DNA of 32,000 nt from Candidatus Saccharimonadota bacterium (lineage in GTDB: Bacteria > Patescibacteriota > Saccharimonadia > Saccharimonadales > Saccharimonadaceae): positions 150,001 to 182,000 of the forward strand of contig CP064995.1 of assembly GCA_016700015.1 (NCBI GenBank), in the 5' to 3' direction. The translations under genes were made by a program, and so were the position numbers. Positions 607 to 29,122 of this stretch are shown here, one piece after another (the first letter of the stretch is position 1; every line of letters begins with the position of its first letter). The notes under the pieces were generated by a model. The model was not told where the DNA came from. It made no database searches and saw only the letters and a program-made list of their open reading frames with translations.

Positions 607-607
607 C

Positions 608-3975: not shown

Positions 3976-4246
3976 AGCAGGAGCACATTGACACGTGAAT
4001 CGACAATCGTGACAAGCGAAACGTCGATTTGGGTGGGAAATAAACGTATCAACAGTGCCTACCTTTAAATGTCGTACGAGCACCGAAATAAGCACTTTTT
4101 AGTAATATAAATTAATAAAATCGGTCGACACGCGTGCTCTTTCCGCAACCTATGGCGGAGTAAGACAAAGTGAGGTAGTGAGATGTCAGTAATGACACCT
4201 TAGGAGTACGATTATTCGTAATCAACCACTCGCTACTGATATATTT
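3976..4246 (+). promoter_or_regulatory. Long (~265 nt) putative structured 5' leader of the LysM-CHAP hydrolase gene
   Basis: Hairpins at AATCGAC 3998-4004 / GTCGATT 4023-4029 and at TGTCA-GTAA-TGACA 4184-4196. GAGCAC occurs twice (3981-3986 and 4078-4083), and both copies are complementary to GTGCTC 4134-4139, so alternative pairings are possible. AGGAG at 4202-4206. Confidence 0.3.
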
Positions 4247-5401
4247 GTGGCGAACCAACTTGAAACTTCATCTCATGCCCTCACTGGCAATGCTTCGCGT
4301 CCCAAAGCGACCCGCGGAGCAGTATCGGGCGCATCGATTGCGTCGTATTTTGGTATTTTTCTTCTTGTCGTATCTATGATTGCCATTGGCTACCATCCAC
4401 CTGTGAAAGCATCGCTTGCTAATGTCGGTAGTGGAGTAGCTGACGCATCGACGACCGCTCTTTCGACTGAAGCGACCGTGGATCAGCTTATGGCCACCAA
4501 TATCGCCGCGACACTTGCCGAAAGCACTGACCTCCCTGTCACCAACAACGTTGCCAACCTGTCGCAATCGCTTGCTATCGAAAGCACTTTGGCGCAAACT
4601 GACACCAATGTCATATCAAAACCGCAAATTGTTCAGCCCGCAGCCGATAGTCGTGTTACCCAGAAGTACGTAACGACTTCCGGTGACACGGTTCAGGCTG
4701 TTTCGCAGCGGTATGGTGTATCGACAACGACTATTAAATGGGCGAATAAGTTGACGTCTGACACCTTAGAGCCAGGACGTGAACTCACCATTCCGCCTGT
4801 CGACGGTATTATCTACACTGTGAAATCGGGTGACACAATCGCCAGTATTGCTGCTAAATATAAGGCTGATGCCAACATTATTCGTAGCTTCAATGACCTT
4901 GAGCTTTCGGGTGATCCTGCAGCGGGTGTTCAAGTCGTCATCCCTGGCGGCGCTTTGCCAACCGAAGAACAGCCGGGCTATGTAGCGCCACGCCGCGTGA
5001 CCATATCGTATTCTAATTATTCTGGTGGTTATGGTACGAGCTGGAACGGGGGCTGGTCTGCTGGTAATAAGTATGCGTGGGGCAACTGTACGTGGTATGC
5101 TTACGAACGACGCATGCAGTTAGGTAATCCTGTGGGTAGCTTCTGGGGCAATGCTAGCACTTGGGCATATAGTGCTGGTGTGGCCGGCTACCTTGTTGAT
5201 GGTAATCCAACTCCTGGCGCCGTGATGCAAAATGGCGGTGGCTGGGGGCATGTGGCAATTGTGGAAGCTATTAACCCAGGTATATCAGTCACAATTAGTG
5301 AAATGAATGGTTATAGATTTGGCGGTGGCTTTGGCCGCGTCGGGCACGGTGACATTTCGTGGGGTGAGGCCACAAGTGGCATGTTCCGATATATTCACTA
5401 A
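4247..5401 (+). CDS. Secreted/anchored peptidoglycan hydrolase: N-terminal TM anchor, 2x LysM, C-terminal CHAP domain
   Basis: Two LysM repeats (YVTTSGDTVQAVSQRYGVS...ELTIP; YTVKSGDTIASIAAKYKAD...VVIPG). CHAP catalytic context is GNCTWYAYERR ... GHVAIVE. The GTG start at 4247 has no nearby SD. An AGGAG at 4202-4206 sits 7 nt upstream of an in-frame ATT (4214), so the true start is uncertain. Confidence 0.85.
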   Translation: MANQLETSSHALTGNASRPKATRGAVSGASIASYFGIFLLVVSMIAIGYHPPVKASLANVGSGVADASTTALSTEATVDQLMATNIAATLAESTDLPVTNNVANLSQSLAIESTLAQTDTNVISKPQIVQPAADSRVTQKYVTTSGDTVQAVSQRYGVSTTTIKWANKLTSDTLEPGRELTIPPVDGIIYTVKSGDTIASIAAKYKADANIIRSFNDLELSGDPAAGVQVVIPGGALPTEEQPGYVAPRRVTISYSNYSGGYGTSWNGGWSAGNKYAWGNCTWYAYERRMQLGNPVGSFWGNASTWAYSAGVAGYLVDGNPTPGAVMQNGGGWGHVAIVEAINPGISVTISEMNGYRFGGGFGRVGHGDISWGEATSGMFRYIH

Positions 5402-17497: not shown

Positions 17498-19060
17498 GTG
17501 AATAAAGCACTAGAAGATAAGCTACGCACGTTACCTGACTCTCCAGGGGTATACTTCCATCGCTCAAAACACGGCGAAGTGATTTATGTTGGTAAAGCTG
17601 CCGTTCTCAAAAATCGTGTACGCCACTATTTCCAAAACCAAAACGATAGGGACGCAAAAACCAAAGCGCTGATCGGTGAAATCTATGATACTGATTGGAT
17701 AGAAACCGAAAGCGAAATCGACGCACTATTTCTCGAAAGTGAAATGGTCAAGCGTTACATGCCAAGATATAATATTTTGCTGCGCGACGATAAATCTCAG
17801 CTCTATGTTAGAATCGACATGAAAAGCGAGTGGCCATTTGTAACAACAACACGCAATCCAGCAGACGATCGCGCAACCTATATCGGTCCGTTCTACAACG
17901 GCTTCGCAGTTAAGAAAGCACTCCGGTATTTGCGCAAAGTGTTTCCTTACTATACCAAGCCTCCAGCCGGTGGTCGACCCGACCTAGATGTTCACTTAGG
18001 GTTGAGTCCTAGCTCTGACACAACAAGTATTGAATACAAAACAAATCTTAAAAAACTTATTAAATATATTAAGGGTGGGCGAGTTGATATCGTAAAAGGT
18101 ATCGAACGTGACATGAAGCGCGCAGCGCGTGCGCATCAATTTGAAACGGCAGCCGATCTACGCAATAAGTTAGGCTACCTGAAAGAATTACAGCGCCGTA
18201 TTATGTTCGGCGACAAAGAGTTTCTCGATATCAGTAAAGACCAGGCGCTGACAAAACTGTCAGAGCTGTTGGGCCTGTCGCGCCAGCCGCGACGGATAGA
18301 GGCAATCGATGTGAGTCACATGAGCGGAGCAGATGTGGTGGCATCGCTCGTCGTATTTATCAACGGCGTCAGTAGTCGTCAGGACTACCGCAAATTCAAA
18401 ATGACTCAGCAACGTAACGATGATTATGAGCATATTTACGAAACCGTGTTTCGTCGCTTTAGTGAAAAAAACATAAAGTCTTGGGGTATGCCCGATTTGC
18501 TATTGATTGATGGCGGCAAGGGGCAGCTGGGCTCGGCACTCGATGCACTTGAAGCACGCCAGGTACAGGTACCCTGCATCGGTATCGCAAAGCGCGAGGA
18601 AGAGCTGGTGATTCATAAATCCCGATCACACATCGACGTATCCTATCTTGCTTGCTCGCGTATTAAACCGATACCAGGGCTATTCGTACAGGAAACAAAA
18701 TATCATTTCGAAGTAAATCTTCATCCGGAACAGCGCAACGCAGGCTCACATTCCCGCAATCTACGTGGCAACAGTGGTGTGACGCCCTATCGCGACATTA
18801 CTCTCTTGATTCAACGTATCCGTGACGAAGCTCACCGCTTTGCAGTTAGTTACCATACTGTATTGCGACGGAATGGTCACGCCAAAAGTCAGCTCGACGG
18901 CATAGCGGGTATTGGCCCGGTACTCAAAAAGCGACTGTTAACACGATTTGGTAGCGTGAGAGGTGTTCGCAGTGCATCGTTTGAGCAGCTAGCCGAAGTA
19001 GTTGGCGCGACACGTGCTCGACGCATTGCTAGCCATATTGCATCAACTACAATTAGCTAG
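17498..19060 (+). CDS. uvrC: Excinuclease ABC subunit C
   Basis: GIY-YIG N-terminus (GVYFHRSKHGEVIYVGKA...), UVR motif (AHQFETAADLRNKLGYL), and a C-terminal (HhH)2 (LDGIAGIGPVLKKRLLTRFGS). At 520 aa it is shorter than the typical ~600 aa. Confidence 0.93.
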   Translation: MNKALEDKLRTLPDSPGVYFHRSKHGEVIYVGKAAVLKNRVRHYFQNQNDRDAKTKALIGEIYDTDWIETESEIDALFLESEMVKRYMPRYNILLRDDKSQLYVRIDMKSEWPFVTTTRNPADDRATYIGPFYNGFAVKKALRYLRKVFPYYTKPPAGGRPDLDVHLGLSPSSDTTSIEYKTNLKKLIKYIKGGRVDIVKGIERDMKRAARAHQFETAADLRNKLGYLKELQRRIMFGDKEFLDISKDQALTKLSELLGLSRQPRRIEAIDVSHMSGADVVASLVVFINGVSSRQDYRKFKMTQQRNDDYEHIYETVFRRFSEKNIKSWGMPDLLLIDGGKGQLGSALDALEARQVQVPCIGIAKREEELVIHKSRSHIDVSYLACSRIKPIPGLFVQETKYHFEVNLHPEQRNAGSHSRNLRGNSGVTPYRDITLLIQRIRDEAHRFAVSYHTVLRRNGHAKSQLDGIAGIGPVLKKRLLTRFGSVRGVRSASFEQLAEVVGATRARRIASHIASTTIS

Positions 19061-19072: not shown

Positions 19073-20665
19073 ATGAAGCATAAGTATCGTGGGTTTACAG
19101 TAGTAGAGCTTATTGTAGTTATCGTACTGCTTGTGATGTTGGCGACGATCACTATTTTTGCAATAGGTAGTTGGAGGACGCGTGTTGCTGAGAGCGAAGC
19201 AAAGAACGATGCTATTCAGGTTGCGTCAGCTATGAAGAATGCCAAAACTTGGGCAAATGGCTATCCCATATTCACAGAAGGTACTGTCTTTGATGGTGCC
19301 AATGCCACTAAGGCTGTATATGTGCCCGGTCAGGGCGTATTGGTGACGTATCAGTCTGGCGATGCGAACAACTACTGTATAGAGGTACGGAGCAAGATTA
19401 TTTCGAACGTGTACTACTATATCGACACGTCGACTGGCGGGACAAGTCCGCAAAAGGGCACCTGTGCCGGGGGGTTAAATAGTATTCCGGTGCCAACCGA
19501 TCCTGGCCAGACGTTGTTTGTGTTCGATACTAGGCTAAGCGGTTGTGTCGGAACGGTTCAGCTTCCGATTGCGTCGCCGGCCTCAGCTGCAGGGAGTACT
19601 ATCAACTGGGGTGATGGTACTACCGGTTCGCTGACATCTACATATCCAAGTCATACCTACACCAAGGCTGGGCGGTATGTTGTCTCTTATGACGGTGCAC
19701 TGGCTAGTATTTCTGGCTCTAGCGTGGCCGCCGGTAACCGTGGCTGTCTCACTGCTATACAGCAATGGTCGAACACTATTTCACCGACCAGTATTGATTT
19801 CAGATATTCTACCAATCTTAGCTATGTTGCAGAGCCGCCACATACGGTTACATCGATGGCATATATGTTTTACGGAGCCCCAACATTTAATCAGGACATA
19901 TCGGGGTGGGATGTTTCTAATGTCATCACCATGGGATATATGTTCAATAATGCAACTGCCTTTAACCAACCAATCGGCTCTTGGAATACTGCTAACGTGA
20001 CCAGTATGACCTATATGTTTGCAGGTGCAACTGCCTTTAACCAACCAATCGGCTCTTGGAATACAAGTAAAGTAAGTAGTATGTTTGCCATGTTCACAAA
20101 TGCAGATGCCTTTAACCAACCAATCGGCACCTGGAATACCGGCAACGTTCTTGATATGACCGCCATGTTTCAGGGTGCTGACGTTTTTAACCAACCAATC
20201 GGCACCTGGAACACTAGTAAAGTAACCAGTATGGCGACTTTATTTAATGGTGCCACAAACTTCAACCAGAACATATCTGGCTGGAATGTGGCGGCTGTAA
20301 CCAGTATGCACATGATGTTTGCAGGTGCAACCGCCTTTAATCAACCAATCGGCACCTGGAATACTAGCAATGTAACCAGTATGGCTTATATGTTCCAGAC
20401 CGCATACGCCTTTAATCAACCAATCGGCACCTGGAACACTAGTAAAGTAACCAATATGACATATATGTTCTACTATGCTACACAGTTTAACCAACCAATC
20501 AGTTCCTGGGATACCAGCAAAGTGACCAACATGGCCTATATGTTTGCTTTCTCTTCTCTTTTCAACCAGAACATATCTGGCTGGAACGTGGCGGCAGTGA
20601 CGAATCATACGAGCTTTCGCACTAATAGTGCGCTCACCGCCATCAATGCTCCTCCAGGCTGGTAG
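19073..20665 (+). CDS. Type IV prepilin-like N-terminus fused to a PKD-like segment and a DUF285/BspA-type leucine-rich repeat domain (candidate pilus-associated adhesin)
   Basis: Class III signal MKHKYRG|[22 protein letters not shown] (G-F-T-x-x-E with Glu at +5). Mid-region INWGDGTTG...[12 protein letters not shown] (PKD-like). About 10 repeats of FNQPIGxWNTSxVTxMxYMFxxAxx (the DUF285 pattern known from Mycoplasma surface proteins). Confidence 0.85.
19886..20635 (+). repeat. Ten in-frame tandem repeats with an exact 75-bp (25-aa) period inside the pilin-like gene
   Basis: The TTTAA(C/T)CA / TTCAACCA anchor recurs at 19886, 19961, 20036, 20111, 20186, 20261, 20336, 20411, 20486 and 20561, exactly +75 each time. 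Some units share a 38-nt identical stretch. Confidence 0.92.
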
Positions 20666-20712: not shown

Positions 20713-21909
20713 ATGCGCCCCAGTCCTCTTCCACCGGATGTAGTACGACTCATCGAAGCACTTGATGGCGGCTTGGTGGTTGTCACTGCCTATGCTCAGC
20801 AGCAACTATCGGGTGATATGGCTGCACCTTTTGTGCAAGAAGCGAGTTTTTGGTGGTTGTCGCGTATCGAGCAGCCCGGATGGAAGCTAGTAATCGATGG
20901 CTCACGACGGAAAACCACCCTTATACGTCCCAGGTTGACGAAATCTCAGATAGTATTTGACGGTGGGCTAGATGACAGTCGGGCTCTTGAGCTTTCGGGT
21001 GCGCATGATGTAATAGGCGCAGACGAGTTTGAGGCTTTTTTGAGACAGGCGCGTCGTGCGCATAGCATGGTGTATACGATAAAGCCGAATATCGAGGAAT
21101 ATGACTTTGAAACTAACCCGGCGCAGCATGAGCTATGCGTAGTGCTCGAGCGCATATTTACCACGGTGCAGGACTGCACGCCTGCACTCGCACAGCTCCG
21201 CGCCATTAAGACACCATTCGAAATTATGTCAATGAAAAAGGCGATTAAGCTGACGACAACTGCTTTCGCAGAGGTTCGAGCCAGACTCGGTGATTACTCG
21301 TACGAATATGAAATTGAGGCAGATATTACACGCTGTTTTCGACGTCATAATGCCAAACATGCCTACGAGCCAATTGTTGCAAGTGGCAAAAACGCACTAA
21401 CACTTCACTATACTGCCAATCGGCATAAACTTGCTAAAAATCAGTTTGTGTTGATTGATGTCGGTGCACGGGCTGACGGGTACTGTGCCGACATTACGCG
21501 CACGTACTGCATAAATCCTACAAAACGTCAGCGTCAAGTCCATGAGGCAGTTGAACATGCACACCATGCCATTATTTCACTCATAAAGCCAGGCCTTCCT
21601 GTGGCTGAGTATCTGAGCCAAGTTGATGAGATCATGAAAGATGCGATGATACGCCTGGGCCTTTTAAAGGACCGGTCGGACGAAGTTCTCTACCATACGT
21701 ACTTTCCGCACGCGGTGAGCCACGGTCTTGGTGTCGACGTCCACGATAGCCTGGGTGCGCCACGCTACCTTGCTGAAGGTATGGTGCTTACCGTAGAGCC
21801 CGGCATCTATATACCAGAAGAAGGAATTGGTGTCCGCATTGAAGATGATGTCCTTGTGACAAAGACTGGCTATAAAAACTTGAGCGGTTCGCTGTCGACA
21901 AATCTCTAG
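20713..21909 (+). CDS. M24B family Xaa-Pro aminopeptidase/dipeptidase
   Basis: Pita-bread fold metal-ligand contexts: LIDVGARADGYCADITRT, HGLGVDVHD, LTVEPGIY, GVRIEDDVLVT. Confidence 0.9.
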   Translation: MRPSPLPPDVVRLIEALDGGLVVVTAYAQQQLSGDMAAPFVQEASFWWLSRIEQPGWKLVIDGSRRKTTLIRPRLTKSQIVFDGGLDDSRALELSGAHDVIGADEFEAFLRQARRAHSMVYTIKPNIEEYDFETNPAQHELCVVLERIFTTVQDCTPALAQLRAIKTPFEIMSMKKAIKLTTTAFAEVRARLGDYSYEYEIEADITRCFRRHNAKHAYEPIVASGKNALTLHYTANRHKLAKNQFVLIDVGARADGYCADITRTYCINPTKRQRQVHEAVEHAHHAIISLIKPGLPVAEYLSQVDEIMKDAMIRLGLLKDRSDEVLYHTYFPHAVSHGLGVDVHDSLGAPRYLAEGMVLTVEPGIYIPEEGIGVRIEDDVLVTKTGYKNLSGSLSTNL

Positions 21910-21917
21910 TAAGACGC

Positions 21918-21923
21918 TATACT
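21918..21923 (+). promoter_or_regulatory. -10 box TATACT, 10 nt upstream of the 21934 ATG
   Basis: TATACT at 21918-21923 and ATG at 21934. Confidence 0.35.
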
Positions 21924-21933
21924 GAAATCAATA

Positions 21934-22329
21934 ATGAAACGCCAGTTACTTACGTTTGTGATCCGATGGATGCTCAATTCATTTGGCCTATGGGTGGCGG
22001 TCAGGATTTTTGGGACTGGATACAGCAACGCGCAAATTGATCAAGGAGCAGCAGTCTTTTTGCTGGCAGGGCTTATTTTCTCAGTAGTTAACGCGGTATT
22101 AAAGCCAGCTGCCATTATATTGGCTTTGCCGGCAATTCTCGTCACGCTCGGGCTCTTCACGATTATTGTTAATGGTCTTATGGTGTATATTTCTCTCAAG
22201 CTTGCCCCGGGGCTAACGATGACATTTTGGCACTCGGTTCTTACTGGTTTGGTGCTAAGTTTGGTAAACTATATAGTTAGTAGCGCGCTTGAATTAGAGT
22301 ATGTGCGCGTGCGAGAGGAGAAATCGTGA
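21934..22329 (+). CDS. Four-TM membrane protein, phage holin family IV-like (YvlD type)
   Basis: 131 aa. The pattern RWMLNSFGLWVAVRIF...LLAGLIFSVVNAVLKPAAIILALPAILVTLGLFTIIVNGLMVY is typical of the PF04020-type family. Confidence 0.65.
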   Translation: MKRQLLTFVIRWMLNSFGLWVAVRIFGTGYSNAQIDQGAAVFLLAGLIFSVVNAVLKPAAIILALPAILVTLGLFTIIVNGLMVYISLKLAPGLTMTFWHSVLTGLVLSLVNYIVSSALELEYVRVREEKS

Positions 22330-22559
22330 ATATAGACAGTATACTTCAGACAATTACTGTTGGATCGGCTCTTTTGATGATAATTGCCATCCTGTTACAG
22401 CAACGTGGAGCAAGCCTTGGTGCTGGATTTGGTGGCTCAAGCGAGCTATACACCACACGGCGTGGACTCGATAAGAATTTATTTGAACTAACGATTTTTC
22501 TTGCGATTACGTTTGTGCTCTCTATTCTCGCCGGGCTAGTACTACCCAACTTAAAATAG
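22326..22559 (+). CDS. secG: Preprotein translocase subunit SecG
   Basis: 77 aa, two TM helices, and LLQQRGASLGAGFGGSSELYTTRRG (SecG signature). GTG start preceded by SD GAGGAG (22315-22320). 4-nt overlap with the upstream gene. Confidence 0.8.
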   Translation: MNIDSILQTITVGSALLMIIAILLQQRGASLGAGFGGSSELYTTRRGLDKNLFELTIFLAITFVLSILAGLVLPNLK

Positions 22560-22568
22560 GATACATGT

Positions 22569-24362
22569 GTGGAAGAAAAACGTGGGTGGAACCAATTTAG
22601 ACATATAAGGCTGAATCACAAACAGCTTGCGCGGCGTATGAAAAAAGCCGAAGGTGCCACACAGCGCCACGCACATCGTTTTATCGTGCGTCGTATCGAT
22701 AACATTCGGCTCGTCACAAGAGAGATTACAACATGGCTGCTAGTAGTCGGAGTAATTATTGCAACCACAGGTTTTCAGCTCATTTGGGGCCAGACTCATT
22801 TTATGCGCAGCACGCCTGTCGCGGGTGGTACGTATGTTGAAGGTGTTTTGGGGCAGATCGATACCATGAACCCCCTTTTTGTAAGTACACCTTCGGAAGC
22901 ATCAGTGGCGCGCCTTGTTTTTTCGTCGCTCTACAACTATGACGAAACTGGGAGTATTCACCAAGATCTCGCTAAGACTCTCACCGCTGATCAAAGCGGC
23001 AAAGTCTACACCATCACTCTCCGTGACGACGTAAAGTGGCATGATGGTGCAGCTTTGACGGCTAAGGACATTGTATTTACAATCAACCTTATAAAAAATC
23101 CGGCAACTCGCTCGCCGCTGCGGATCAATTGGCTTGACGTGTCTGTTACCGCGCCTACGAATACCACGGTCCAGTTTACGCTTCCCGCTACCTATGCGGC
23201 TTTTCCTCATGCGTTAACATTCCCAATATTACCCGAGCACATCTTGCGGGGCGTTGCCCCGGGTGCGCTACGAGAAAGCCCCTATAGTCGTTCACCAGTG
23301 GGGAGCGGTCCATTTAGTTTTCGGCTATTACAAGCTGCCGATGCGGTCAGTAAGCACAAAGTTGTCCACCTTGTGGCGAATGATCGATATTATGCTGGCA
23401 TACCGAAACTTGATCGATTTGAACTCCATGCTTACCCCACGGAAGATGCACTGCTGAGTGCGCTTAAGGCTGGAGAGCTAAGTGGCGCAAGCGGTGTTTC
23501 TGTTACGTCTCTTTCGCAGGTAGATACTGCACGCTATACAATGACTGCGCAAGCACTCTATAGCGGTGTATACATACTCTTTAATGTGAACAATCCCATA
23601 CTAAAAGATAGTAAGGTACGCAAAGCTTTACAGATTGGGACTGATACCATTTCATTGCGCAAGGTTATAGGTGGAGGTGTTCTCCCGCTTGACACGCCAG
23701 TTATTGAAAGTCAACTAACCGAAGGTGATTTCCCGAAACTGTCGTCGATTGACACGACGAAGGCGAAAGCTCTACTAGATGAAGCCGGCTGGGTTGTCAG
23801 TGGAAGCAACCGCGCAAAAGACGGTAAAATACTCGAATTCACTATTACCACTACGAAAAATCCCGAATACGAAAAATCGATTGATGTATTGACAAGGCAG
23901 TGGCAGACCTTGGGGGTAAAGGTAAATAAAAAGATTGTTGACGTATCGACAGTTACTTCGACATTTGTTCAGGATGTATTAAAAGCGCGAAACTTTGACA
24001 TGCTTCTTTATGAACTAGCGATTGGCGGCGACCCAGATGTCTATGCTTATTGGCATTCATCACAGGTGGGGCAGAGTGGCTATAACTTCTCTGGCTATGC
24101 GAGCAAGGCGGCAGATGCAAGTTTGGCAAGTGCCCGTTCTCGGCTCGAGCCAGAACTGCGCAGCGCCAAGTATAAACAGTTCGCCCGTCAATGGCAAGAA
24201 GATGCCCCTGCGCTAGGACTATATCAGCCTGTCTTAGAATATATTGCTAATCTGAATGTGAAAGCTGTCAACAAAGGCACCATACTCACTACAGAGTCTG
24301 ACCGTTATGCCAATGTCCAGTACTGGACTGTCAATGAAAAGAATTTATACAAAACGCCATAA
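22569..24362 (+). CDS. ABC-transporter family-5 (peptide/nickel, OppA/DppA-like) solute-binding protein, membrane-anchored, with no adjacent permease/ATPase genes
   Basis: The 597-aa ORF has a basic N-terminus and one TM helix (WLLVVGVIIATTGF). SBP_bac_5-like body (DDVKWHDGAALTAKDIVFT...). Start uncertain (GTG 22569 or a later ATG). Confidence 0.8.
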   Translation: MEEKRGWNQFRHIRLNHKQLARRMKKAEGATQRHAHRFIVRRIDNIRLVTREITTWLLVVGVIIATTGFQLIWGQTHFMRSTPVAGGTYVEGVLGQIDTMNPLFVSTPSEASVARLVFSSLYNYDETGSIHQDLAKTLTADQSGKVYTITLRDDVKWHDGAALTAKDIVFTINLIKNPATRSPLRINWLDVSVTAPTNTTVQFTLPATYAAFPHALTFPILPEHILRGVAPGALRESPYSRSPVGSGPFSFRLLQAADAVSKHKVVHLVANDRYYAGIPKLDRFELHAYPTEDALLSALKAGELSGASGVSVTSLSQVDTARYTMTAQALYSGVYILFNVNNPILKDSKVRKALQIGTDTISLRKVIGGGVLPLDTPVIESQLTEGDFPKLSSIDTTKAKALLDEAGWVVSGSNRAKDGKILEFTITTTKNPEYEKSIDVLTRQWQTLGVKVNKKIVDVSTVTSTFVQDVLKARNFDMLLYELAIGGDPDVYAYWHSSQVGQSGYNFSGYASKAADASLASARSRLEPELRSAKYKQFARQWQEDAPALGLYQPVLEYIANLNVKAVNKGTILTTESDRYANVQYWTVNEKNLYKTP

Positions 24363-24440: not shown

Positions 24441-24508
24441 GCCTTAATCCAACCTAAAAGGATGAGCCGAAACTCATCTTTATAGCGTGGTGCACTGGAG
24501 AAGACTTG
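24441..24508 (+). repeat. Site 1: arm P + 9-bp core TGGTGCACT + 12 nt of the tRNA-Leu(GAG) 3' end (attB-like relic)
   Basis: TGGTGCACTGGAGAAGACTTG (24488-24508) is identical to 28070-28090, the reverse complement of the last 21 nt of tRNA-Leu(GAG). Arm P (24441-24487) recurs at 24624-24669. Confidence 0.85.
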
Positions 24509-24623: not shown

Positions 24624-24678
24624 GCCTTAATAAACCTAAAAAGATGAGCCGAAACTCATCTTTATAGCGTGGTGCACT
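24624..24678 (+). repeat. Site 2 left part: second copy of arm P + core (left element junction, attR-like in tRNA orientation)
   Basis: GCCTTAATAAACCTAAAAAGATGAGCCGAAACTCATCTTTATAGCG + TGGTGCACT. About 90% identical to 24441-24496 (one indel and a few mismatches). On the minus strand it contains the hairpin AAAGATGAG/CTCATCTTT followed by a T-rich tract, which looks like the native tRNA-Leu terminator. Confidence 0.85.
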
Positions 24679-24851
24679 TTTACACGCAAGTCCGAACCTA
24701 TTTTGAGCAAAATGGCTGACAAATGCAAGCCCCGTCGCCTAGCACAGCAAAGCTGTGCTGCGCCCCGCTCAGAAAACCCTTTGCATATTTTTTTGAGATT
24801 TCCCCCGCCGAGATTTTTTTGGAAAAGGAAAAGGGTGTTTCTGGTCGGGTC
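24670..24851 (+). repeat. Inverted repeat R (left copy, 9-bp core + 173 bp)
   Basis: By eye, the reverse complement of 26012-26193 along its full length. Supported by identical 50-aa translations of the spurious ORFs 24703..24915(+) and 25975..26160(-). Confidence 0.9.
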
Positions 24852-24939
24852 GCGTCTGCCTTTGGCAGACAGGCGGCGTGGCTCGGTCGGCATAGCCGAC
24901 ACACTTCGCCAGTGAAGCGTAAAAGCAGATGAACAGTTG

Positions 24940-24945
24940 TATAAT
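24940..24945 (+). promoter_or_regulatory. -10 box TATAAT, 6 nt upstream of the cargo Nudix ATG (leaderless-type)
   Basis: TATAAT at 24940-24945, ggaggt, then ATG at 24952. The GGAGG is too close to the ATG to serve as an SD. Confidence 0.4.
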
Positions 24946-24951
24946 GGAGGT

Positions 24952-25374
24952 ATGATAGATTTTATCGGAGTGAAAATTGCCCTAATAAACAACGGCAAAC
25001 TACTAATGATACAGCGCGATGACAAACCTGGTTTACGCTATGCTGGCTTGTGGGATTTTCCCGGTGGCGCAAGAGAAGAAAACGAAACCCCAGCGGAATG
25101 TGTAATTCGCGAGGTTGATGAAGAACTGGGAATTACGCTTAAACCAGAACAAATAATCTGGGAAAGGGTTTTTCCAGCTATGCACGACGAGAGATTAAAC
25201 GCATATTTTATGGTTGCAGAAATATCGGACAACGATGTTGATAACATAGTTTTCGGCGATGAGGGACAGGGCTGGAAAATGTTTGCTATTGATGAATTCC
25301 TTAACTCAAACGAAGTAGTTGAACCACTAAAAGATAGGCTCAAGCCATATCTTGACACTAAAGTTCAGGTATAA
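24952..25374 (+). CDS. Nudix hydrolase (element cargo)
   Basis: Nudix box GGAREENETPAECVIREVDEELGI, 140 aa from ATG 24952. The track's TTG start at 24937 would overlap the TATAAT box. Confidence 0.85.
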   Translation: MIDFIGVKIALINNGKLLMIQRDDKPGLRYAGLWDFPGGAREENETPAECVIREVDEELGITLKPEQIIWERVFPAMHDERLNAYFMVAEISDNDVDNIVFGDEGQGWKMFAIDEFLNSNEVVEPLKDRLKPYLDTKVQV

Positions 25375-25966
25375 GTTCTTTTAATCTCTCTCTTAATTGG
25401 TCGGGGCTTGTAAAAGTTATACCGTGCATACCGACAGATGTGGCGGCTTGGGCGTTTTCGGGGTCATCATCAATAAATATAGTTTGATCGGCTTTCGCCC
25501 CAAGAGTTTCAAGGGCATACTCATAAATGTCTTTGTGGGGTTTGCGCAGGCCTATCTCGTGCGACAACAAGACGATACCAAAATCATCATACAAGCCTGC
25601 TTCTCGTAGTGCTTTTGCGTGTGGCTCAATGGTGTTAGACAACACTGCCGTCTTAATGCCGAGTTCGCCCAAGTCTTTGACAATAGTCCGAACCTCTGCG
25701 AACGGCACGAGCTGTTCTATAAATGCGCGCCCTAACAAGTTTTCATCTACTCCGACTTGCCTTAATCCGTGTTTCTCGCTGACTTGTTGCCAAAACTCTG
25801 TTTCGTCAATTTTACCTGAACCAAGTAAAGGAATTTGCTCTGCCCAAATTTGAGCAAGTGTTTCCTTGCTCAAACCAAGCTCATTAGCTAAATCCTCCGT
25901 AACTGCTGAGTTACTCTCGTGCAGAACGCCGCCCGCGTCGAAAATAACGGTTTCTATCTTACTCAT
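25358..25966 (-). CDS. HAD-superfamily hydrolase/phosphatase, subfamily IA-like (element cargo)
   Basis: HAD motifs I VIFDAGGVL, II VLSNT, III GLRKP, IV IFIDDDPEN. 202 aa. Convergent 17-nt overlap with the Nudix gene. Confidence 0.88.
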   Translation of the reverse strand: MSKIETVIFDAGGVLHESNSAVTEDLANELGLSKETLAQIWAEQIPLLGSGKIDETEFWQQVSEKHGLRQVGVDENLLGRAFIEQLVPFAEVRTIVKDLGELGIKTAVLSNTIEPHAKALREAGLYDDFGIVLLSHEIGLRKPHKDIYEYALETLGAKADQTIFIDDDPENAQAATSVGMHGITFTSPDQLRERLKELIPEL

Positions 25967-26011: not shown

Positions 26012-26193
26012 GACCCGACCAGAAACACCCTTTTCCTTTTCCAAAAAAATCTCGGCGGGGGAAATCTCAAAAAAATATGCAAAGGGTTTTCTGAGCGGGG
26101 CGCAGCACAGCTTTGCTGTGCTAGGCGACGGGGCTTGCATTTGTCAGCCATTTTGCTCAAAATAGGTTCGGACTTGCGTGTAAAAGTGCACCA
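26012..26193 (-). repeat. Inverted repeat R (right copy, 173 bp + core AGTGCACCA)
   Basis: Reverse complement of 24670-24851. Confidence 0.9.
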
Positions 26194-26323: not shown

Positions 26324-26481
26324 AGGTTGGCATAGCCGACACGCTCCGCGTTGTGCTACCATAGAAAGTGGAAAACAATTCAAGGCATATGCTGTTTTGT
26401 GCTTAAACGGCTACTTCGCAACTATTTGGCGTATGCTGAATTGTTTTCCAAGCGGAGTAGCCTTTTAAGTTGGGAGGGTAT

Positions 26482-28110
26482 ATGCAACTACAACAAATAG
26501 CGCAACGATTGGTGTATTTCATCTATGTGCGTAAGTCTACGGATACAGAGGACAAACAAATCTTATCTATCGCGGCGCAGATAGTGGAACTCAAGGAGTT
26601 TGCTAAGCGCATGGGCTTGTATATCGCTGATGTCATCATAGAAAAGCAAACGGCGAAAACGCCAGGTCGCCCCAAACTCAACAAAATGCTGGAGCGCATA
26701 GAAAACGGTGAGGCAAACGGTATTTTGGCATGGTTGCCCGACAGATTGTCGCGCAACTCAATAGATAGCGGACGGATTATTTACATGCTGGACGTAAACG
26801 TCCTGCAAGACCTAAAGTTTCCGCATTTTTGGTTTGAAAACACACCACAAGGCAAATATATGCTGGCTAACGAGTTCAACAGCTCTAAACAGTACGTGGA
26901 CAATTTGTCAGTAAACACAAAACGAGGTTTGCGGCAAAAAGTTCGTGATGGTCATTATCCAAGTATCGTACCATTCGGCTATTACAACGATGTGCGGACA
27001 AAGACGGTGGCTAGAAACAAAAAAACCGCGCCGCTGGTGCGCCGATGTTTTGAACTGTACGCTAAAGGCGACAAGACATGCGGAGACATCGCGGATTTTT
27101 TGTTTGCTAACGGTGTGGCGACCAAAGGTCGCCGCAAAACCAAAAATGACCCGAAGTCGGCGGGCGGTAAACGCTGGCACGAAACAAAAGTCAAACATAT
27201 GCTCTCGAATATCTTTTATTATGGGCATTTTCGCTACGCTGGCGAAGTATACGAGGGTAAGCATACCCTGATAGTGGACAAAGCATTGTTTGACCGCGTA
27301 CAGGCTGTGCTATTGCGCCGCTCGCGGGCGCAAAAACGCGCCACCAGTCCGCAACCGCTGACAATGCTTTTTCGCTGTGCGAACTGCGATTGTTTTGTTA
27401 CTGGCTCGCACAAGATAAAGCGACAGAAAAACGGCAATGTCCATGAGTACACCTATTACCGATGTACGCACAAAAGCAAAAAAGTCACGTGCCGCGAGCC
27501 GGAACTGCGCGAATACGCGCTGGCAAGCCAACTCGTACCAATTGCGCGGTCATTTGCTATGCCGAAAGATATGGGCGCGTTTATGCTCGCCAAACTGGAC
27601 CAGGACGCACAAGTCGTCCAAGCCGACAGCGCTAGATTAATTGCTACGCACCGCGCCCGACTGGACGAACTGGCCGGCAAGAGTCAGCGACTTTTTGACG
27701 TCTATATGGACGGCGATATTGAGCAGGATGAATACCGCGAAAGACGCGCCGAAATTATGTCTGAGAAAAAGTCGCTAGAAAGCAAAGTGGAACAAATCGC
27801 CGCTCGCGCTGACTTTTGGATTGAACCTATGCGCGAGTGGGTCAAAACAGCAATTTCACTCTGTAAAGTTGACGAAAACACCCCACACCAAGCCTTGCGC
27901 GAGAGTTTACGCAGAATCGACGGATTGAACCTGCTCTTAAAAAACAAAAAAGTCGTTGCCAGCAACGACCAATTTCCCATTTCCCCCCAAGAAAACATTT
28001 GGTTCGCGCTGCGCGCGACCAAAGAAAAAATCGCCCTGGTAGGCGACAATTTCCCGAAAAATCGCTTTTTGGTGCACTGGAGAAGACTTGAACTTCCACG
28101 ATCGCAATGA
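26482..28110 (+). CDS. Large serine recombinase (resolvase/invertase N-domain + recombinase domain + zinc ribbon + coiled coil)
   Basis: Catalytic N-terminus VYFIYVRKSTDTEDKQILSIAAQ and WLPDRLSRN. Zn-ribbon CANCDC...YYRCTHKSKKVTC. Coiled coil near aa 400-460. SD GGGAGG at 26472-26477 before ATG 26482. The last ~45 codons run through arm S', the core, and antisense into tRNA-Leu(GAG). Confidence 0.92.
   Translation: MQLQQIAQRLVYFIYVRKSTDTEDKQILSIAAQIVELKEFAKRMGLYIADVIIEKQTAKTPGRPKLNKMLERIENGEANGILAWLPDRLSRNSIDSGRIIYMLDVNVLQDLKFPHFWFENTPQGKYMLANEFNSSKQYVDNLSVNTKRGLRQKVRDGHYPSIVPFGYYNDVRTKTVARNKKTAPLVRRCFELYAKGDKTCGDIADFLFANGVATKGRRKTKNDPKSAGGKRWHETKVKHMLSNIFYYGHFRYAGEVYEGKHTLIVDKALFDRVQAVLLRRSRAQKRATSPQPLTMLFRCANCDCFVTGSHKIKRQKNGNVHEYTYYRCTHKSKKVTCREPELREYALASQLVPIARSFAMPKDMGAFMLAKLDQDAQVVQADSARLIATHRARLDELAGKSQRLFDVYMDGDIEQDEYRERRAEIMSEKKSLESKVEQIAARADFWIEPMREWVKTAISLCKVDENTPHQALRESLRRIDGLNLLLKNKKVVASNDQFPISPQENIWFALRATKEKIALVGDNFPKNRFLVHWRRLELPRSQ
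27974..28078 (-). repeat. Inverted repeat S (right copy, 96 bp + core); right element junction (site 4, attL-like in tRNA orientation)
   Basis: Reverse complement of 26185-26289. Lies within the recombinase 3' coding region and abuts the tRNA 3' end. Confidence 0.9.
28025..28046 (-). terminator. Element-borne terminator for tRNA-Leu(GAG), about 24 nt downstream of its CCA end
   Basis: The minus strand reads TCGCC-TACCAG-GGCGA-TTTTTTCTTT. It replaces the presumed native terminator now found in arm P. Confidence 0.5.
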
Positions 28111-28157
28111 TCACCAGCCCCTCAAGCTGACGCGTCTACCAATTTCGCCACCAGTGC
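28070..28157 (-). tRNA. tRNA-Leu (anticodon GAG), type II with long variable arm, CCA encoded
   Basis: Manual fold: acceptor GCACTGG/CCAGTGC, D arm GCG-AAATTGGTAGA-CGC, anticodon stem TCAGC/GCTGG with loop TTGAGGG, variable arm with GATC/GATC stem, T arm GGAAG-TTCAAGT-CTTCT, discriminator A, CCA. Confidence 0.9.
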
Positions 28158-28197
28158 ATATGAATTATGAGAACGTACCATCGGAGTTTTATGTCGT
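28146..28197. repeat. Direct repeat copy a: tRNA-Leu(GAG) 5' end (12 nt) + its upstream/promoter region
   Basis: CGCCACCAGTGCATATGAATTATGAGAACGTACCATCGGAGTTTTATGT. About 88% identical to 28266-28318 (offset 120 bp). Confidence 0.8.
28164..28169 (-). promoter_or_regulatory. -10-like box CATAAT, 6 nt upstream of the mature 5' end of tRNA-Leu(GAG)
   Basis: The minus strand reads CATAATtcatatGCACTGG. Confidence 0.35.
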
Positions 28198-28265
28198 CCT
28201 TGGACATATTGTCTTAGCGGCGGAATCGGTAGACGGGCGTCTACTACTATTTGCGTTTCACGCAG

Positions 28266-28318
28266 TCGCCACCAGTGTATATGAATTGTATGAACGTACC
28301 ATCGGAGTTTTGTGTACT
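28266..28318. repeat. Direct repeat copy b: orphan duplicate of the tRNA-Leu(GAG) 5' end + promoter region
   Basis: CGCCACCAGTGTATATGAATTGTATGAACGTACCATCGGAGTTTTGTGT. The rest of the tRNA is not duplicated. Adjacent hairpin GTAGAC-GGGC-GTCTAC at 28230-28245. Confidence 0.75.
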
Positions 28319-28373
28319 TGCAAGATTATAGTCGATAACACACTTTTTGTAAATAACAGATGAGCTAGCATGA

Positions 28374-28379
28374 TATAAT
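28374..28379 (+). promoter_or_regulatory. -10 box TATAAT, 9 nt upstream of tRNA-Cys
   Basis: TATAAT at 28374-28379. The tRNA 5' end is at 28389. Confidence 0.4.
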
Positions 28380-28388
28380 AAGGAGCAC

Positions 28389-28462
28389 GGCGCGTTGGCG
28401 GAGCAGTTACGCGGAGGTCTGCAAAACCTTTTAGATGGGTGCAACTCCCATACGTGCCTCCA
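28389..28462 (+). tRNA. tRNA-Cys (anticodon GCA), CCA encoded, U73 discriminator
   Basis: Manual fold: acceptor GGCGCGT/ACGTGCC (one G-U pair), D stem GCG(G)/(A)CGC, anticodon stem GAGGT/ACCTT with loop CTGCAAA, 4-nt variable loop, T arm ATGGG-TGCAACT-CCCAT, then T-CCA. The 5' and 3' ends resemble E. coli tRNA-Cys. The T-loop has G where U55 is expected. Confidence 0.8.
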
Positions 28463-28495
28463 AAATAATCTCAAACTTTGGGATTATTTTGTTTT
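28461..28495 (+). terminator. AT-rich hairpin + T-run after tRNA-Cys
   Basis: CAAAATAATC (28461-28470) / GATTATTTTG (28482-28491), an 11-nt loop, followed by TTTTA. Confidence 0.45.
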
Positions 28496-28562
28496 ATGAA
28501 TGTCAATATTTGGGTACCCAAATGCCATTGAAATGGTAAACGCAACCACATACAATAGATAC

Positions 28563-29054
28563 ATGCCAAAACGTAGGTCATGGGATGATAAAAAATAGTA
28601 AAAGCAGTGATGAAAATAAAAGTATTCGAGGGGTACTTATTGACTTGTCGTTAGTCCCGGCTGACGGTAACTATGCCCAAGTAAACAAGAGGATATCAGA
28701 ACTTGGCCTGTCGACATCGCATTTTACGGGCCAGGGCTGGAGCGCTGGTTTGCGTCTTGGGGCAAGAACATTAGACCATTTGCATGAACTTCTCGTTGAG
28801 AATAGTGACTATCAAAGCTTTAAGCTCAAGAGACTATTATTTCGGGAAGAGCTAAAAAACCAAAATGCGAGATTTGTGGCTGGGAAGAGCGGTCAATTGA
28901 TGGTAGAATTCCTGTAGAGCTAGACCATATAAACGGCATCCATTCTGATAATCGACTAGAGAATCTTCGGATTTTGTGCCCAAACTGTCACAGCTTGCAA
29001 CCAACCCATAGGGGGCGCAATAAAAAGCGACGATATGCGCAGATGTTGGAATAG
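28563..29054 (+). pseudogene. HNH endonuclease gene interrupted by two frameshifts at A6 tracts
   Basis: Frame 3: MPKRRSWDDKK* (28563-28598). Frame 1: ...NSKSSDENKSIRGVLIDLSLVPADGNYAQVNKRISELGLSTSHFTGQGW...KRLLFREELKN... (to 28917). Frame 3 again: KCEICGWEERSIDGRIPVELDHINGIHSDNRLENLRILCPNCHS...* (28863-29054). The last segment carries the HNH/Zn-finger core. The shifts occur at A6 28590-28595 and A6 28854-28859. Confidence 0.8.
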
Positions 29055-29122
29055 GTAGACAAGCGACACTTAAAATGTCGTGCCCAAAAGGCGTGCGGGT
29101 TCGATCCCCGCTCTGCGCACCA
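29037..29122 (+). tRNA. tRNA-Leu (anticodon UAA), type II, CCA encoded
   Basis: Manual fold: acceptor GCGCAGA/TCTGCGC, D arm TTG-GAATAGGTAGA-CAA, anticodon stem CGACA/TGTCG with loop CTTAAAA, variable arm with GCC/GGC stem, T arm GCGGG-TTCGATC-CCCGC, A-CCA. Confidence 0.92.

What the first reader, a model, noticed from the sequence alone, without database searches (positions are those of the whole stretch)
19073..20665. Type IV pilin-like protein carrying a PKD-like module and a BspA/DUF285 leucine-rich repeat domain: candidate pilus-displayed adhesin
The N-terminus is a canonical prepilin-peptidase substrate (MKHKYRG|FTVVELIVV..., Glu at +5). The remaining ~490 residues are not a small pilin globular head. 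They comprise a ~110-aa pilin-like region, a segment with the PKD-type WGDG...HTY...G.Y.V pattern, and ten 25-residue DUF285 repeats (FNQPIGxWNTSxVTxMxYMF). Repeats of this type are best known from Mycoplasma and oral-bacterial BspA-like surface adhesins. Fusing such a domain to a pilin N-terminus would place a protein-binding LRR solenoid on or at the tip of a type IV filament. If this genome is an episymbiotic Saccharibacterium, that is inference from gene content. Published work on cultivated members implicates type IV pili in host attachment, so this would be a plausible host-recognition determinant. The gene sits directly after uvrC, not in a pil operon.
Basis: partly seen in the sequence, partly recalled or inferred. 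Interest (0 to 1): 0.7.

Follow-up and report, generated by a model that had tools for sequence, protein, structure and literature searches.

The report
Pilin carrying a swappable adhesin-like domain
This Saccharibacteria gene encodes a small type IV pilin fused to a large repeat domain that probably sticks to other cells, and related genomes keep the same pilin at the same spot but with quite different sticky domains, which makes it a candidate for choosing the bacterial host.

Summary
ORF 19073-20665 (+) encodes a 530-aa protein, identical to GenBank QQS22093.1 (Candidatus Saccharibacteria MAG). It has four parts: a canonical prepilin signal (MKHKYRG|FTVVE), a compact pilin module (res 1-131), a 15-residue linker, and a cargo. 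The cargo is a beta-sandwich cap plus ten exact 25-residue DUF285/PARCEL repeats. AlphaFold2 gives pLDDT 92.5, and the head matches solved type IV pilins. The "PKD-like" segment is only a sub-threshold PKD match. It is the usual N-terminal companion of DUF285 arrays, not an extra module. "BspA" is a naming convention: the true BspA repeat (LRR_5) does not match.

The new result is comparative. The order uvrC, pilin, pepP, holin-like, secG, SBP_5 is conserved in about 30 Saccharibacteria species genomes. The pilin module is orthologous (31-46% identity), but the cargo differs: none, fn3, LamG lectin, RCC1 or other propellers, fn3 plus phage tail-collar domains, or DUF285.

Best reading: a modular minor type IV pilin that displays a lineage-specific binding module. 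Pilus incorporation, the ligand and the genome's pilus machinery could not be tested. The N_methyl-DUF285 architecture was already catalogued in 2021 (22 proteins), so this is a new member of a known kind.

The parts
19073..20665 (+). Whole gene: modular pilin with DUF285/PARCEL cargo (530 aa plus stop). Identical to GenBank QQS22093.1.
19073..19093 (+). Class III (prepilin) leader peptide MKHKYRG, residues 1-7. Predicted cleavage is after Gly7.
   Evidence: N_methyl PF07963 at 22.5 bits, above the 21.2 cut-off. The motif is conserved in 24 of 29 homologues by Pfam.
19094..19252 (+). Alpha-1 helix of the mature pilin (residues 8-60), with Phe+1 and Glu+5 (E12).
   Evidence: The AlphaFold2 model has a helix at 10-60. 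E12 is invariant. The only PDB sequence match is the Geopilin N-terminal helix.
19253..19465 (+). Globular beta-sheet head of the pilin module (residues 61-131), with the invariant pair Cys102 and Cys131.
   Evidence: Foldseek matches to PilA4 6xxd_A (TM 0.62), TTHA1221, TTHA1222, PilV and others. C102 and C131 are invariant. The cargo-less orthologues L018 and L024 end at the Cys131 equivalent.
19466..19510 (+). Linker [15 protein letters not shown] (residues 132-146) between carrier and cargo.
   Evidence: In the alignment of slot pilins, sequences diverge completely after 'GTC(A)'.
19511..19849 (+). N-terminal beta-sandwich and cap of the cargo (residues 147-259). It holds WGDG...HTY...G.Y.V and the conserved Cys158 and Cys225.
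   Evidence: PKD and PKD_4 are sub-threshold. The segment is shared with non-pilin DUF285 proteins directly after their signal peptide. It is present in 4-35 copies in giant proteins. No PKD fold hit was found.
19850..20599 (+). Ten 25-residue DUF285/PARCEL repeats (residues 260-509), consensus TSMxYMFxxAxxFNQPIGxWNTSxV. The model shows an LRR-like solenoid.
   Evidence: Foldseek gives LRR proteins (Nogo receptor, probability 1.0) and viral DUF285 proteins (E down to 2e-26).
20600..20662 (+). C-terminal cap [21 protein letters not shown] (residues 510-530).
   Evidence: Conserved in the closest homologues. pLDDT is 95-98.
17498..19060 (+). uvrC, the conserved upstream neighbour. Its stop codon lies 12 nt before the pilin start.
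19026..19053 (+). Promoter-like site TTGCTA-16-TACAAT inside the 3' end of uvrC. It is a weak consensus match only.
   Evidence: The number of such sites in the region is not above the shuffled expectation.
20713..24362 (+). Conserved downstream block: pepP-like M24 peptidase (20713-21909), PF04020 holin-like membrane protein (21934-22329), secG (22326-22559) and an SBP_5 solute-binding protein (22569-24362).
   Evidence: The same order occurs in related loci.

Best explanation
The gene encodes a modular minor type IV pilin.

Inferred mechanism:
- A prepilin peptidase encoded elsewhere in the genome removes the 7-residue leader.
- The hydrophobic alpha-1 helix, with Glu at +5, lets the small pilin module (residues 8-131) join a type IV pilus built by machinery encoded elsewhere.
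- The bulk of the cargo suggests low copy number, most probably at the tip.
- The 15-residue linker holds out a 384-residue cargo: a beta-sandwich cap plus a ten-turn DUF285/PARCEL solenoid.
- The variable repeat positions (4, 8, 9, 11 and 12 of each unit) would form a binding surface for a ligand on another cell, most plausibly the host bacterium of this episymbiont.

Shown here:
- The pilin module is a conserved carrier at the uvrC-pepP locus of many Saccharibacteria.
- The cargo is the exchangeable part and differs between lineages.
- The architecture, the fold prediction, the synteny, the cargo exchange and purifying selection on the gene are all supported by tool results.

Not shown: peptidase processing, incorporation into a pilus, tip location, and the nature of the ligand.
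For: Signal and fold:
- The class III signal passes Pfam's cut-off, and Glu+5 is invariant.
- AlphaFold2 gives pLDDT 92.5 and pTM 0.82, with a 50-residue N-terminal helix and a beta head.
- The N-terminal model best matches solved type IV pilins: PilA4 6xxd_A (probability 1.00, TM 0.62, rmsd 3.8 A), TTHA1221, TTHA1222, PilV, and the M. xanthus and C. difficile pilins.

Conservation and locus:
- Thirty-six full-length homologues share the whole architecture. About 21 clusters at 50% identity match the whole pilin-plus-cap profile.
- Seven of nine DUF285-pilins examined lie between uvrC and pepP.
- In about 30 species-representative Saccharibacteria genomes the same slot holds a pilin module 31-46% identical to this one (aligned columns), with other cargo or none. 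Examples: 122-123 aa plain pilins ending at the Cys131 equivalent; fn3; Laminin_G_3; DUF6242; RCC1; fn3+RCC1; fn3 plus three Collar/Gp10_C domains.
- Further relatives of the pilin module carry RCC1, NHL or BNR-like propellers.

Evolutionary rates against the closest orthologue:
- pilin module dN 0.062
- neighbours uvrC, pepP and SBP_5 dN 0.157-0.168
- repeats dN 0.258
- dN/dS is far below 1, but dS is saturated.

Composition: Gly+Ala+Ser+Thr is 40%, against 25-27% for cytoplasmic neighbours. This is the criterion used for TM7x pilins.

Literature:
- Modular pilins present adhesive modules on pili (S. sanguinis PilB, PMC8179133).
- Saccharibacteria type IV pili, and the propeller-bearing minor pilin PilX2, mediate host binding (PMC11623550).
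Against: - No pilus machinery and no prepilin peptidase lies in the window. The rest of the 1.01-Mb genome could not be read.
- The gene is not in a pilin cluster.
- DUF285 has no defined ligand or solved structure, so 'adhesin' rests on analogy.
- The TIGR02532 prepilin domain model scores 16.2 bits, just under its 16.3 cut-off.
- In TM7x the orphan pilin PilK gave no host-binding phenotype. Orphan pilins therefore need not matter for attachment.
- The two trees showing cargo interspersed with phylogeny are neighbour-joining trees without support values.
Confidence: 0.6

Rival explanations
1. Surface anchor, not a pilus subunit. The class III signal and helix serve only to insert and hold the protein in the membrane, or in a short pseudopilus. 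The DUF285 domain is then displayed at the cell surface rather than on a long filament.
For: The gene is an orphan among housekeeping and secretion-related genes such as secG and an SBP_5 binding protein. The first PARCEL study found that DUF285 domains are attached to many kinds of membrane-targeting sequences. The cargo is about three times the size of the carrier, which would be awkward inside a filament.
Against: The pilin head, and not just the helix, is conserved and has a pilin fold with the Cys pair. The head evolves more slowly than UvrC, which is hard to explain for a mere anchor. Cargo-less 122-123 aa orthologues at the same locus are ordinary pilins.
Confidence: 0.2
2. Pilus-displayed, but not a host-recognition adhesin. 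The DUF285 array is a variable surface coat or decoy, as in the antigenic variation of mycoplasma lipoproteins. Alternatively it binds something other than the host, such as abiotic surfaces, matrix polymers or phage.
For: PARCEL proteins are variable surface lipoproteins in mycoplasmas and spread by horizontal transfer. Repeat number varies among homologues of 460-626 aa. The repeats are the fastest-evolving part. DUF285 solenoids are common in giant viruses and jumbo phages.
Against: The alternative cargos at the same locus are mostly recognised ligand-binding folds: lectin, propellers and phage receptor-binding-type domains. The closest orthologue shows ordinary purifying selection rather than a phase-variable repeat tract. 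No simple-sequence switch was seen.
Confidence: 0.15
3. Major subunit of a dedicated thick filament decorated along its length with DUF285 domains.
For: The signal is canonical T4a-like with a short leader, and the composition is rich in Gly, Ala, Ser and Thr.
Against: A 41-kDa cargo on every subunit is sterically implausible for the known pilus packing. In TM7x the major pilins are the small ones, and the large pilins are minor. The orthologous slot pilins vary from 122 to over 800 aa.
Confidence: 0.03

Closest known systems
Modular type IV pilins as defined by Raynaud et al. 2021 (S. sanguinis PilB with a vWA module, PilC with a lectin module; PMC8179133)
   Same: Both have a class III signal, a small pilin module, a short linker and a bulky non-pilus domain. 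In PilB that domain was shown to mediate adhesion. That paper's Dataset S1 already lists the architecture IPR012902-IPR005046 (N_methyl-DUF285) in 22 of 1219 modular pilins. IPR005046 is DUF285 according to PMC2996958.
   Different: The DUF285 architecture was only counted there, not discussed or tested. The present protein is from Saccharibacteria and sits in a conserved non-pilus locus with exchangeable cargo.
PilX2 of Nanosynbacter lyticus TM7x (minor pilin with an RCC1 beta-propeller; PMC11623550 / PMC12206443)
   Same: It is a Saccharibacteria pilin with a large C-terminal binding-type module, and it is required for efficient host binding and competition. Relatives of the present pilin module also carry RCC1 propellers.
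   Different: PilX2 lies in a pilin cluster (locus three) and has no predicted PilD signal. The present protein has a canonical signal, is an orphan after uvrC and carries DUF285. No orthology to PilX2 was tested.
PARCEL / DUF285 surface proteins (mycoplasma lipoproteins such as LppQ and the Mbov_0838 family, Bacteroidota T9SS proteins, giant-virus and phage proteins)
   Same: They share the same 25-residue repeat (PF03382 E=3.7e-109; TIGR02167 ten times) and the same N-terminal WGDG/HTY cap module.
   Different: Those proteins are anchored by a lipobox, a Sec signal plus a T9SS C-terminal domain, or not at all. Here the anchor is a pilin module.
BspA of Tannerella forsythia and other BspA-type LRR proteins (Pfam LRR_5, PF13306)
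   Same: Both are solenoid repeat surface proteins, and NCBI names both 'BspA family leucine-rich repeat surface protein'. The model resembles LRR proteins.
   Different: It is a different repeat family. PF13306 does not match this protein at E<=1, whereas true LRR_5 proteins occur elsewhere in Saccharibacteria (L069).
Tip-located large minor pilins of type IVb pili (CofB, TcpB), as discussed in PMC8179133
   Same: A pilin module is followed by extra beta-rich domains that are thought to sit at the pilus tip and mediate binding.
   Different: The extra domains are unrelated, the pilus class differs, and those genes are encoded in pilus operons.

Membership tests
Type IV pilin (class III signal peptide protein) | Short polar leader ending in Gly, then about 20 hydrophobic residues with Glu at +5 (N_methyl motif) | tested here: met
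   MKHKYRG|FTVVELIVV... PF07963 scores 22.5 bits against a 21.2 cut-off. E12 is invariant in 36 homologues. TIGR02532 is marginal at 16.2 against 16.3.
Type IV pilin (class III signal peptide protein) | Lollipop fold: a long N-terminal alpha-helix packed on an antiparallel beta-sheet head | tested here: met
   AlphaFold2 shows a helix at 10-60 and strands at 71-130, with pLDDT about 85-93. Foldseek matches PilA4 6xxd_A (probability 1.00, TM 0.62) and five other solved pilins.
Type IV pilin (class III signal peptide protein) | C-terminal disulfide-bonded region of the head | tested here: inconclusive
   Cys102 and Cys131 are invariant, and Cys131 is the last residue of the cargo-less orthologues. 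Bond formation itself was not tested.
Type IV pilin (class III signal peptide protein) | Cleavage and N-methylation by a prepilin peptidase, and assembly by PilB/PilC machinery encoded in the same genome | not testable with these tools
   There is no machinery in the window. The 1.01-Mb source contig could not be retrieved. PilB-like ATPases lie next to pilin genes in other Saccharibacteria loci (L075, L083, L087). The literature reports type IV pili as near-universal in the phylum.
Modular pilin (Raynaud et al. 2021) | N-terminal IPR012902 motif plus an additional domain not specific to pilus biology | tested here: met
   N_methyl plus DUF285. The same architecture is listed in that paper's Dataset S1.
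DUF285 / PARCEL repeat protein (PF03382, TIGR02167) | Tandem 25-residue units matching the family HMM | tested here: met
   PF03382 E=3.7e-109. TIGR02167 matches ten stretches, E=2e-57. Ten units are in exact 25-residue register.
DUF285 / PARCEL repeat protein (PF03382, TIGR02167) | Dyad symmetry of the coding DNA (the 'palindromic' in PARCEL) | tested here: inconclusive
   The repeat finder gave only one weak inverted pair (17 nt, 76%). However, long antisense ORFs run through the repeat tract (19781-20194 and 20240-20608, minus strand), a feature the PARCEL paper links to palindromic coding sequences. That paper's statistical motif method was not reproduced.
PKD domain (PF00801 / PF18911) | Score at or above Pfam's gathering threshold over the ~80-residue domain | tested here: not met
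   PKD scores 17.9 bits (cut-off 23.5) and PKD_4 16.9-18.2 bits (cut-off 27), covering residues 178-205 only. Twelve of 29 homologues give a PKD_4 match at E<=0.01, none checked against the gathering score (best E=3.7e-5).
PKD domain (PF00801 / PF18911) | Ig-like beta-sandwich fold matching solved PKD domains | tested here: inconclusive
BspA-type leucine-rich repeat (LRR_5, PF13306) | Match to the LRR_5 repeat HMM | tested here: not met
   PF13306 is not among the Pfam matches at E<=1. Genuine LRR_5 proteins score E=1e-89 in locus L069.

The most novel reading that the evidence does not exclude
The uvrC-pepP locus of Saccharimonadia may be a conserved cargo-exchange site. One orthologous carrier pilin has been re-equipped many times with unrelated binding modules: DUF285, RCC1, NHL and BNR propellers, LamG lectin, fn3 plus phage tail-collar domains, or none. 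The cargo would set which host bacterium a lineage can attach to. This would be a cellular counterpart of receptor-binding-protein swapping in phages. The DUF285 version in this window would be one allele of that host-range determinant.
Probability: 0.35. Interest if true: 0.75.

Novelty: new member of a known kind. Interest (0 to 1): 0.55.

Why it matters
How ultrasmall episymbiotic Saccharibacteria recognise their particular host bacteria is still open. Type IV pili and one propeller-bearing minor pilin have been implicated in a single cultivated strain. This gene, and the conserved locus it occupies, offers a concrete candidate specificity determinant that can be found in any genome by synteny. 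The carrier is more conserved than UvrC, and the cargo differs between lineages. If cargo type tracks host range, hosts of uncultivated lineages could be predicted, and cultivated strains could be re-targeted by swapping cargo. It would also give the widespread DUF285/PARCEL domain, which still has no known ligand, a defined presentation context in which to look for one.

Tried and rejected
1. Pilus machinery in the same genome. A look-up of the exact protein returned only a 5-kb ENA contig, not the 1,011,181-bp NCBI contig, so pilB, pilC and pilD could not be searched. I considered searching the protein database with a Saccharibacteria PilB from L083 and looking for a hit on a 1,011,181-bp contig. 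I dropped the idea because only the best 120 hits are listed and the lineage is distant from the query.
2. The truncated ORF at 1-606 is an actin-fold ATPase. It scores FtsA > EutJ > PilM, all far below cut-offs, so it is not usable as evidence for pilus machinery.
Counts of loci are therefore lower bounds, and the mix of cargo types is not an unbiased census.
5. A PDB sequence search found no solved DUF285 relative. Only the N-terminal helix matched, to Geopilin.
6. dN/dS against the closest orthologue: dS is saturated (1.6-3.1, or undefined), so only the dN values are used.
7. The DNA-level palindromy of PARCELs was not reproduced with the repeat finder.
8. An artefactual fusion or pseudogene is rejected. 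Thirty-six homologues share the full architecture, and an independent ENA assembly carries the identical gene.
Full report
**What is there.** The ORF 19073-20665 (+) exists as described and encodes 530 residues. It is identical to a GenBank protein, QQS22093.1, named [quoted passage not shown] on a 1,011,181-bp contig. The same gene with the same neighbours also occurs in an independent ENA assembly. A lysM-TM7 RNA motif at 4057-4206 agrees with a Saccharibacteria origin.

Pfam gives DUF285 at E=3.7e-109 and N_methyl at 22.5 bits (cut-off 21.2). PKD reaches only 17.9 bits (cut-off 23.5) and PKD_4 16.9 bits (cut-off 27). NCBIfam calls the repeat "PARCEL repeat" (TIGR02167, ten stretches) and gives weak N-terminal matches to GspG, PilA and ComGE. 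The FNQ motif recurs exactly every 25 residues, ten times, from residue 260 to 509. Positions M3, F7, F13, N14, Q15, I17, W20 and V25 of the unit are invariant. Positions 4, 8, 9, 11 and 12 are highly variable. The sequence-level observation is therefore confirmed.

**Structure.** An AlphaFold2 model built on 36 full-length homologues has mean pLDDT 92.5 and pTM 0.82. It shows a helix at 10-60, a beta head up to about residue 130, a second beta-rich region at 147-242 and then a regular solenoid.

- Foldseek of the whole model against PDB finds leucine-rich-repeat proteins (Nogo receptor, probability 1.0, TM 0.38) and several type IV pilins.
- A separate model of residues 1-262 (pLDDT 90) has as its best PDB match the cryo-EM structure of the Thermus thermophilus pilin PilA4 (6xxd_A, probability 1.00, TM 0.62, rmsd 3.8 A). 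Next come TTHA1221, TTHA1222, N. meningitidis PilV, and the M. xanthus and C. difficile pilins.
- Against viral models the solenoid matches many DUF285 proteins of giant viruses and jumbo phages, with E down to 2e-26. This fits the published view of this repeat as part of the mobilome.

**The 'PKD-like' segment.** The WGDG...HTY...G.Y.V pattern is a genuine but weak PKD resemblance. Twelve of 29 family members give sub-threshold PKD_4 hits, the best at 3.7e-5. The same roughly 115-residue segment follows the Sec signal peptide directly in many non-pilin DUF285 proteins of Bacteroidota and others. It also occurs in 4-35 copies in giant proteins. It is therefore the regular N-terminal companion of DUF285 arrays. 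The pilin acquired the whole cassette of cap plus repeats. The "BspA" label reflects NCBI's naming. The BspA-type repeat family LRR_5 does not match this protein, whereas it matches other Saccharibacteria proteins strongly.

**A family, and a conserved locus.** About 40 of the best 120 database hits carry the prepilin motif followed by WGDG at about residue 160-190. Thirty-six of them align over their full length, with invariant E12, C102, C131 and WGD.

Seven of nine members whose contigs I could read lie in the same gene order: uvrC, pilin, M24 peptidase (pepP-like), PF04020 membrane protein, secG, SBP_5. Two lie elsewhere.

A scan of species-representative genomes with the N-terminal 262 residues returned two full-length matches. 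It also returned about 30 Saccharibacteria loci in which only residues 1 to about 135 match (tblastn 27-40%; 31-46% over aligned columns). In these the match sits directly downstream of uvrC and usually upstream of pepP and SBP_5. Those genes encode the same pilin module with different C-terminal parts:

- none at all (122 and 123 residues, ending at the equivalent of Cys131)
- fn3
- Laminin_G_3 lectin
- a DUF6242 propeller-like domain
- RCC1 propeller, or fn3 plus RCC1
- fn3 plus three phage tail-collar/Gp10_C domains (about 13 loci)
- several domains with no Pfam match

The alignment shows all sequences diverging immediately after the conserved "GTC(A)". This fixes the boundaries: pilin module 1-131, linker 132-146, cargo 147-530. 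A profile search of 1.8 billion representatives found about 27 further pilin-module-only relatives among the top 150. Those checked carry RCC1, NHL or BNR-like propellers.

On neighbour-joining trees of UvrC and of the pilin module, cargo types are interspersed and the DUF285 type is not monophyletic. These trees have no support values and are only suggestive.

**Selection.** Against the closest orthologue (a wastewater MAG, 71-75% identity overall) the values are:

- pilin module: dN 0.062
- uvrC, pepP and SBP_5: dN 0.157-0.168
- cap: dN 0.130
- repeats: dN 0.258

dS is saturated, so dN/dS (0.04-0.08) shows only that the gene is under purifying selection. The carrier is thus more constrained than a DNA-repair enzyme, and the cargo repeats are the fastest-evolving part of the neighbourhood. 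Gly+Ala+Ser+Thr content is 40%, against 25-27% for cytoplasmic neighbours. That is in the range used to flag exposed pilins in TM7x.

**Mechanism.** The best-supported reading is a modular minor type IV pilin. The leader would be removed by a prepilin peptidase, the alpha-1 helix and head would insert into a pilus, and the linker would hold out the DUF285 solenoid as a binding module.

- The strong conservation of the head, and not only the helix, argues against a mere membrane anchor. So does the existence of ordinary cargo-less orthologues at the same locus.
- The alternative cargos are mostly recognised binding folds, which supports a ligand-binding role.
- The literature supplies the precedents. 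S. sanguinis PilB is a pilin with a grafted vWA adhesin module. In TM7x, type IV pili and the RCC1-propeller minor pilin PilX2 are needed for host binding and competition.
- Tip location, the identity of the ligand and which of the two Saccharibacteria pilus systems would carry it are all inference.
- The window contains no pilus machinery, and I could not read the rest of the genome.
- Transcription is probably shared with uvrC, given the 12-nt gap and a weak AAGG before the ATG. A weak promoter-like site inside uvrC is not significant.

**Novelty.** The concept of modular pilins is established. The exact architecture N_methyl-DUF285 is already counted in Dataset S1 of Raynaud et al. 2021, as 22 of 1219 proteins. 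IPR005046 is DUF285. No paper in the searchable library links DUF285 with pilins functionally, or with Saccharibacteria. The finding itself is therefore a new member of a known kind. The part I could not find described is the conserved uvrC-pepP locus in which one carrier pilin bears interchangeable cargo. If that cargo sets host specificity, the locus would be a useful handle on an open question in episymbiont biology.

Noticed in passing
window 24670-24851 and 26012-26193: A perfect 182-nt inverted repeat (100% complementary) flanks a 1160-nt segment holding a NUDIX gene (24937-25374 +) and a HAD hydrolase gene (25358-25966 -). A large serine recombinase gene (26470-28110) lies 280 nt further on. 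This may be an invertible segment or an assembly artefact. No Rfam match at E<=0.1.
   Followed up: partly
window 24451-24496 and 24633-24678: A 46-nt direct repeat (98% identical), each copy containing a hairpin (GATGAGCCGAAACTCATC), lies in the intergenic region after the SBP_5 gene.
   Followed up: no
window 26470-29122: The serine recombinase ORF (Resolvase+Recombinase+Zn_ribbon) overlaps tRNA-Leu(gag) at its 3' end (28070-28157, minus strand). It is followed by tRNA-Cys (28389-28462) and tRNA-Leu(taa) (29037-29122). This may be the edge of an integrated element.
   Followed up: no
window 4057-4206: A lysM-TM7 RNA (Rfam RF03005, 104.7 bits) lies upstream of a LysM/CHAP peptidoglycan hydrolase gene (4247-5401). 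It is a known cis-regulatory motif specific to TM7.
   Followed up: yes
window 19781-20194 (-) and 20240-20608 (-): Long antisense ORFs (137 and 122 aa, with repeated '[10 protein letters not shown]') run through the DUF285 repeat tract. The PARCEL paper links opposite-strand ORFs to palindromic coding repeats. They are probably not genes.
   Followed up: partly
window 1-2233: A truncated actin-fold ATPase (FtsA/EutJ/PilM-like, all below cut-offs) is followed by a 541-aa membrane protein with no family match, then ruvX and mltG. It is unclear whether this relates to cell division or to pilus alignment.
   Followed up: partly
L069:6001-11766 (Ca. Saccharibacteria UBA6209): Another orphan pilin (160 aa) lies directly after truB, next to two large true BspA-type LRR_5 proteins (E=3e-49 and 1e-89). 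The same MAG also has a DUF285-pilin at a different, non-uvrC locus between ftsK and the RNase J gene, near a 182-aa pilin.
   Followed up: partly
L007:6723-7778: In the locus of orthologue P0025, a second N_methyl pilin gene (351 aa) follows the SBP_5 gene. It has no counterpart in the window.
   Followed up: no
proteins P0049, P0060, P0107, P0114: These DUF285 proteins have the cap module at about residue 190, preceded by a different N-terminal hydrophobic anchor (for example ...HGINMVDLMMWLVIAAMLL). They may represent another pilin-like or membrane-anchor class fused to the same cassette.
   Followed up: no
L010:6001-7500 (Ca. Saccharibacteria UBA669): The closest species-representative orthologue (84% identical over the N-terminal 262 residues) reads through to an unrelated C-terminus (...RRIKFQSECIWMECDGRDKPYELPH). 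This suggests a frameshift within the repeat tract in that assembly.
   Followed up: no
proteins P0122-P0260: About 100 giant proteins (1,000-5,400 aa) contain 4-35 copies of the WGDG/HTY cap-like module. The module is thus a repeatable domain in its own right outside the pilin context.
   Followed up: no
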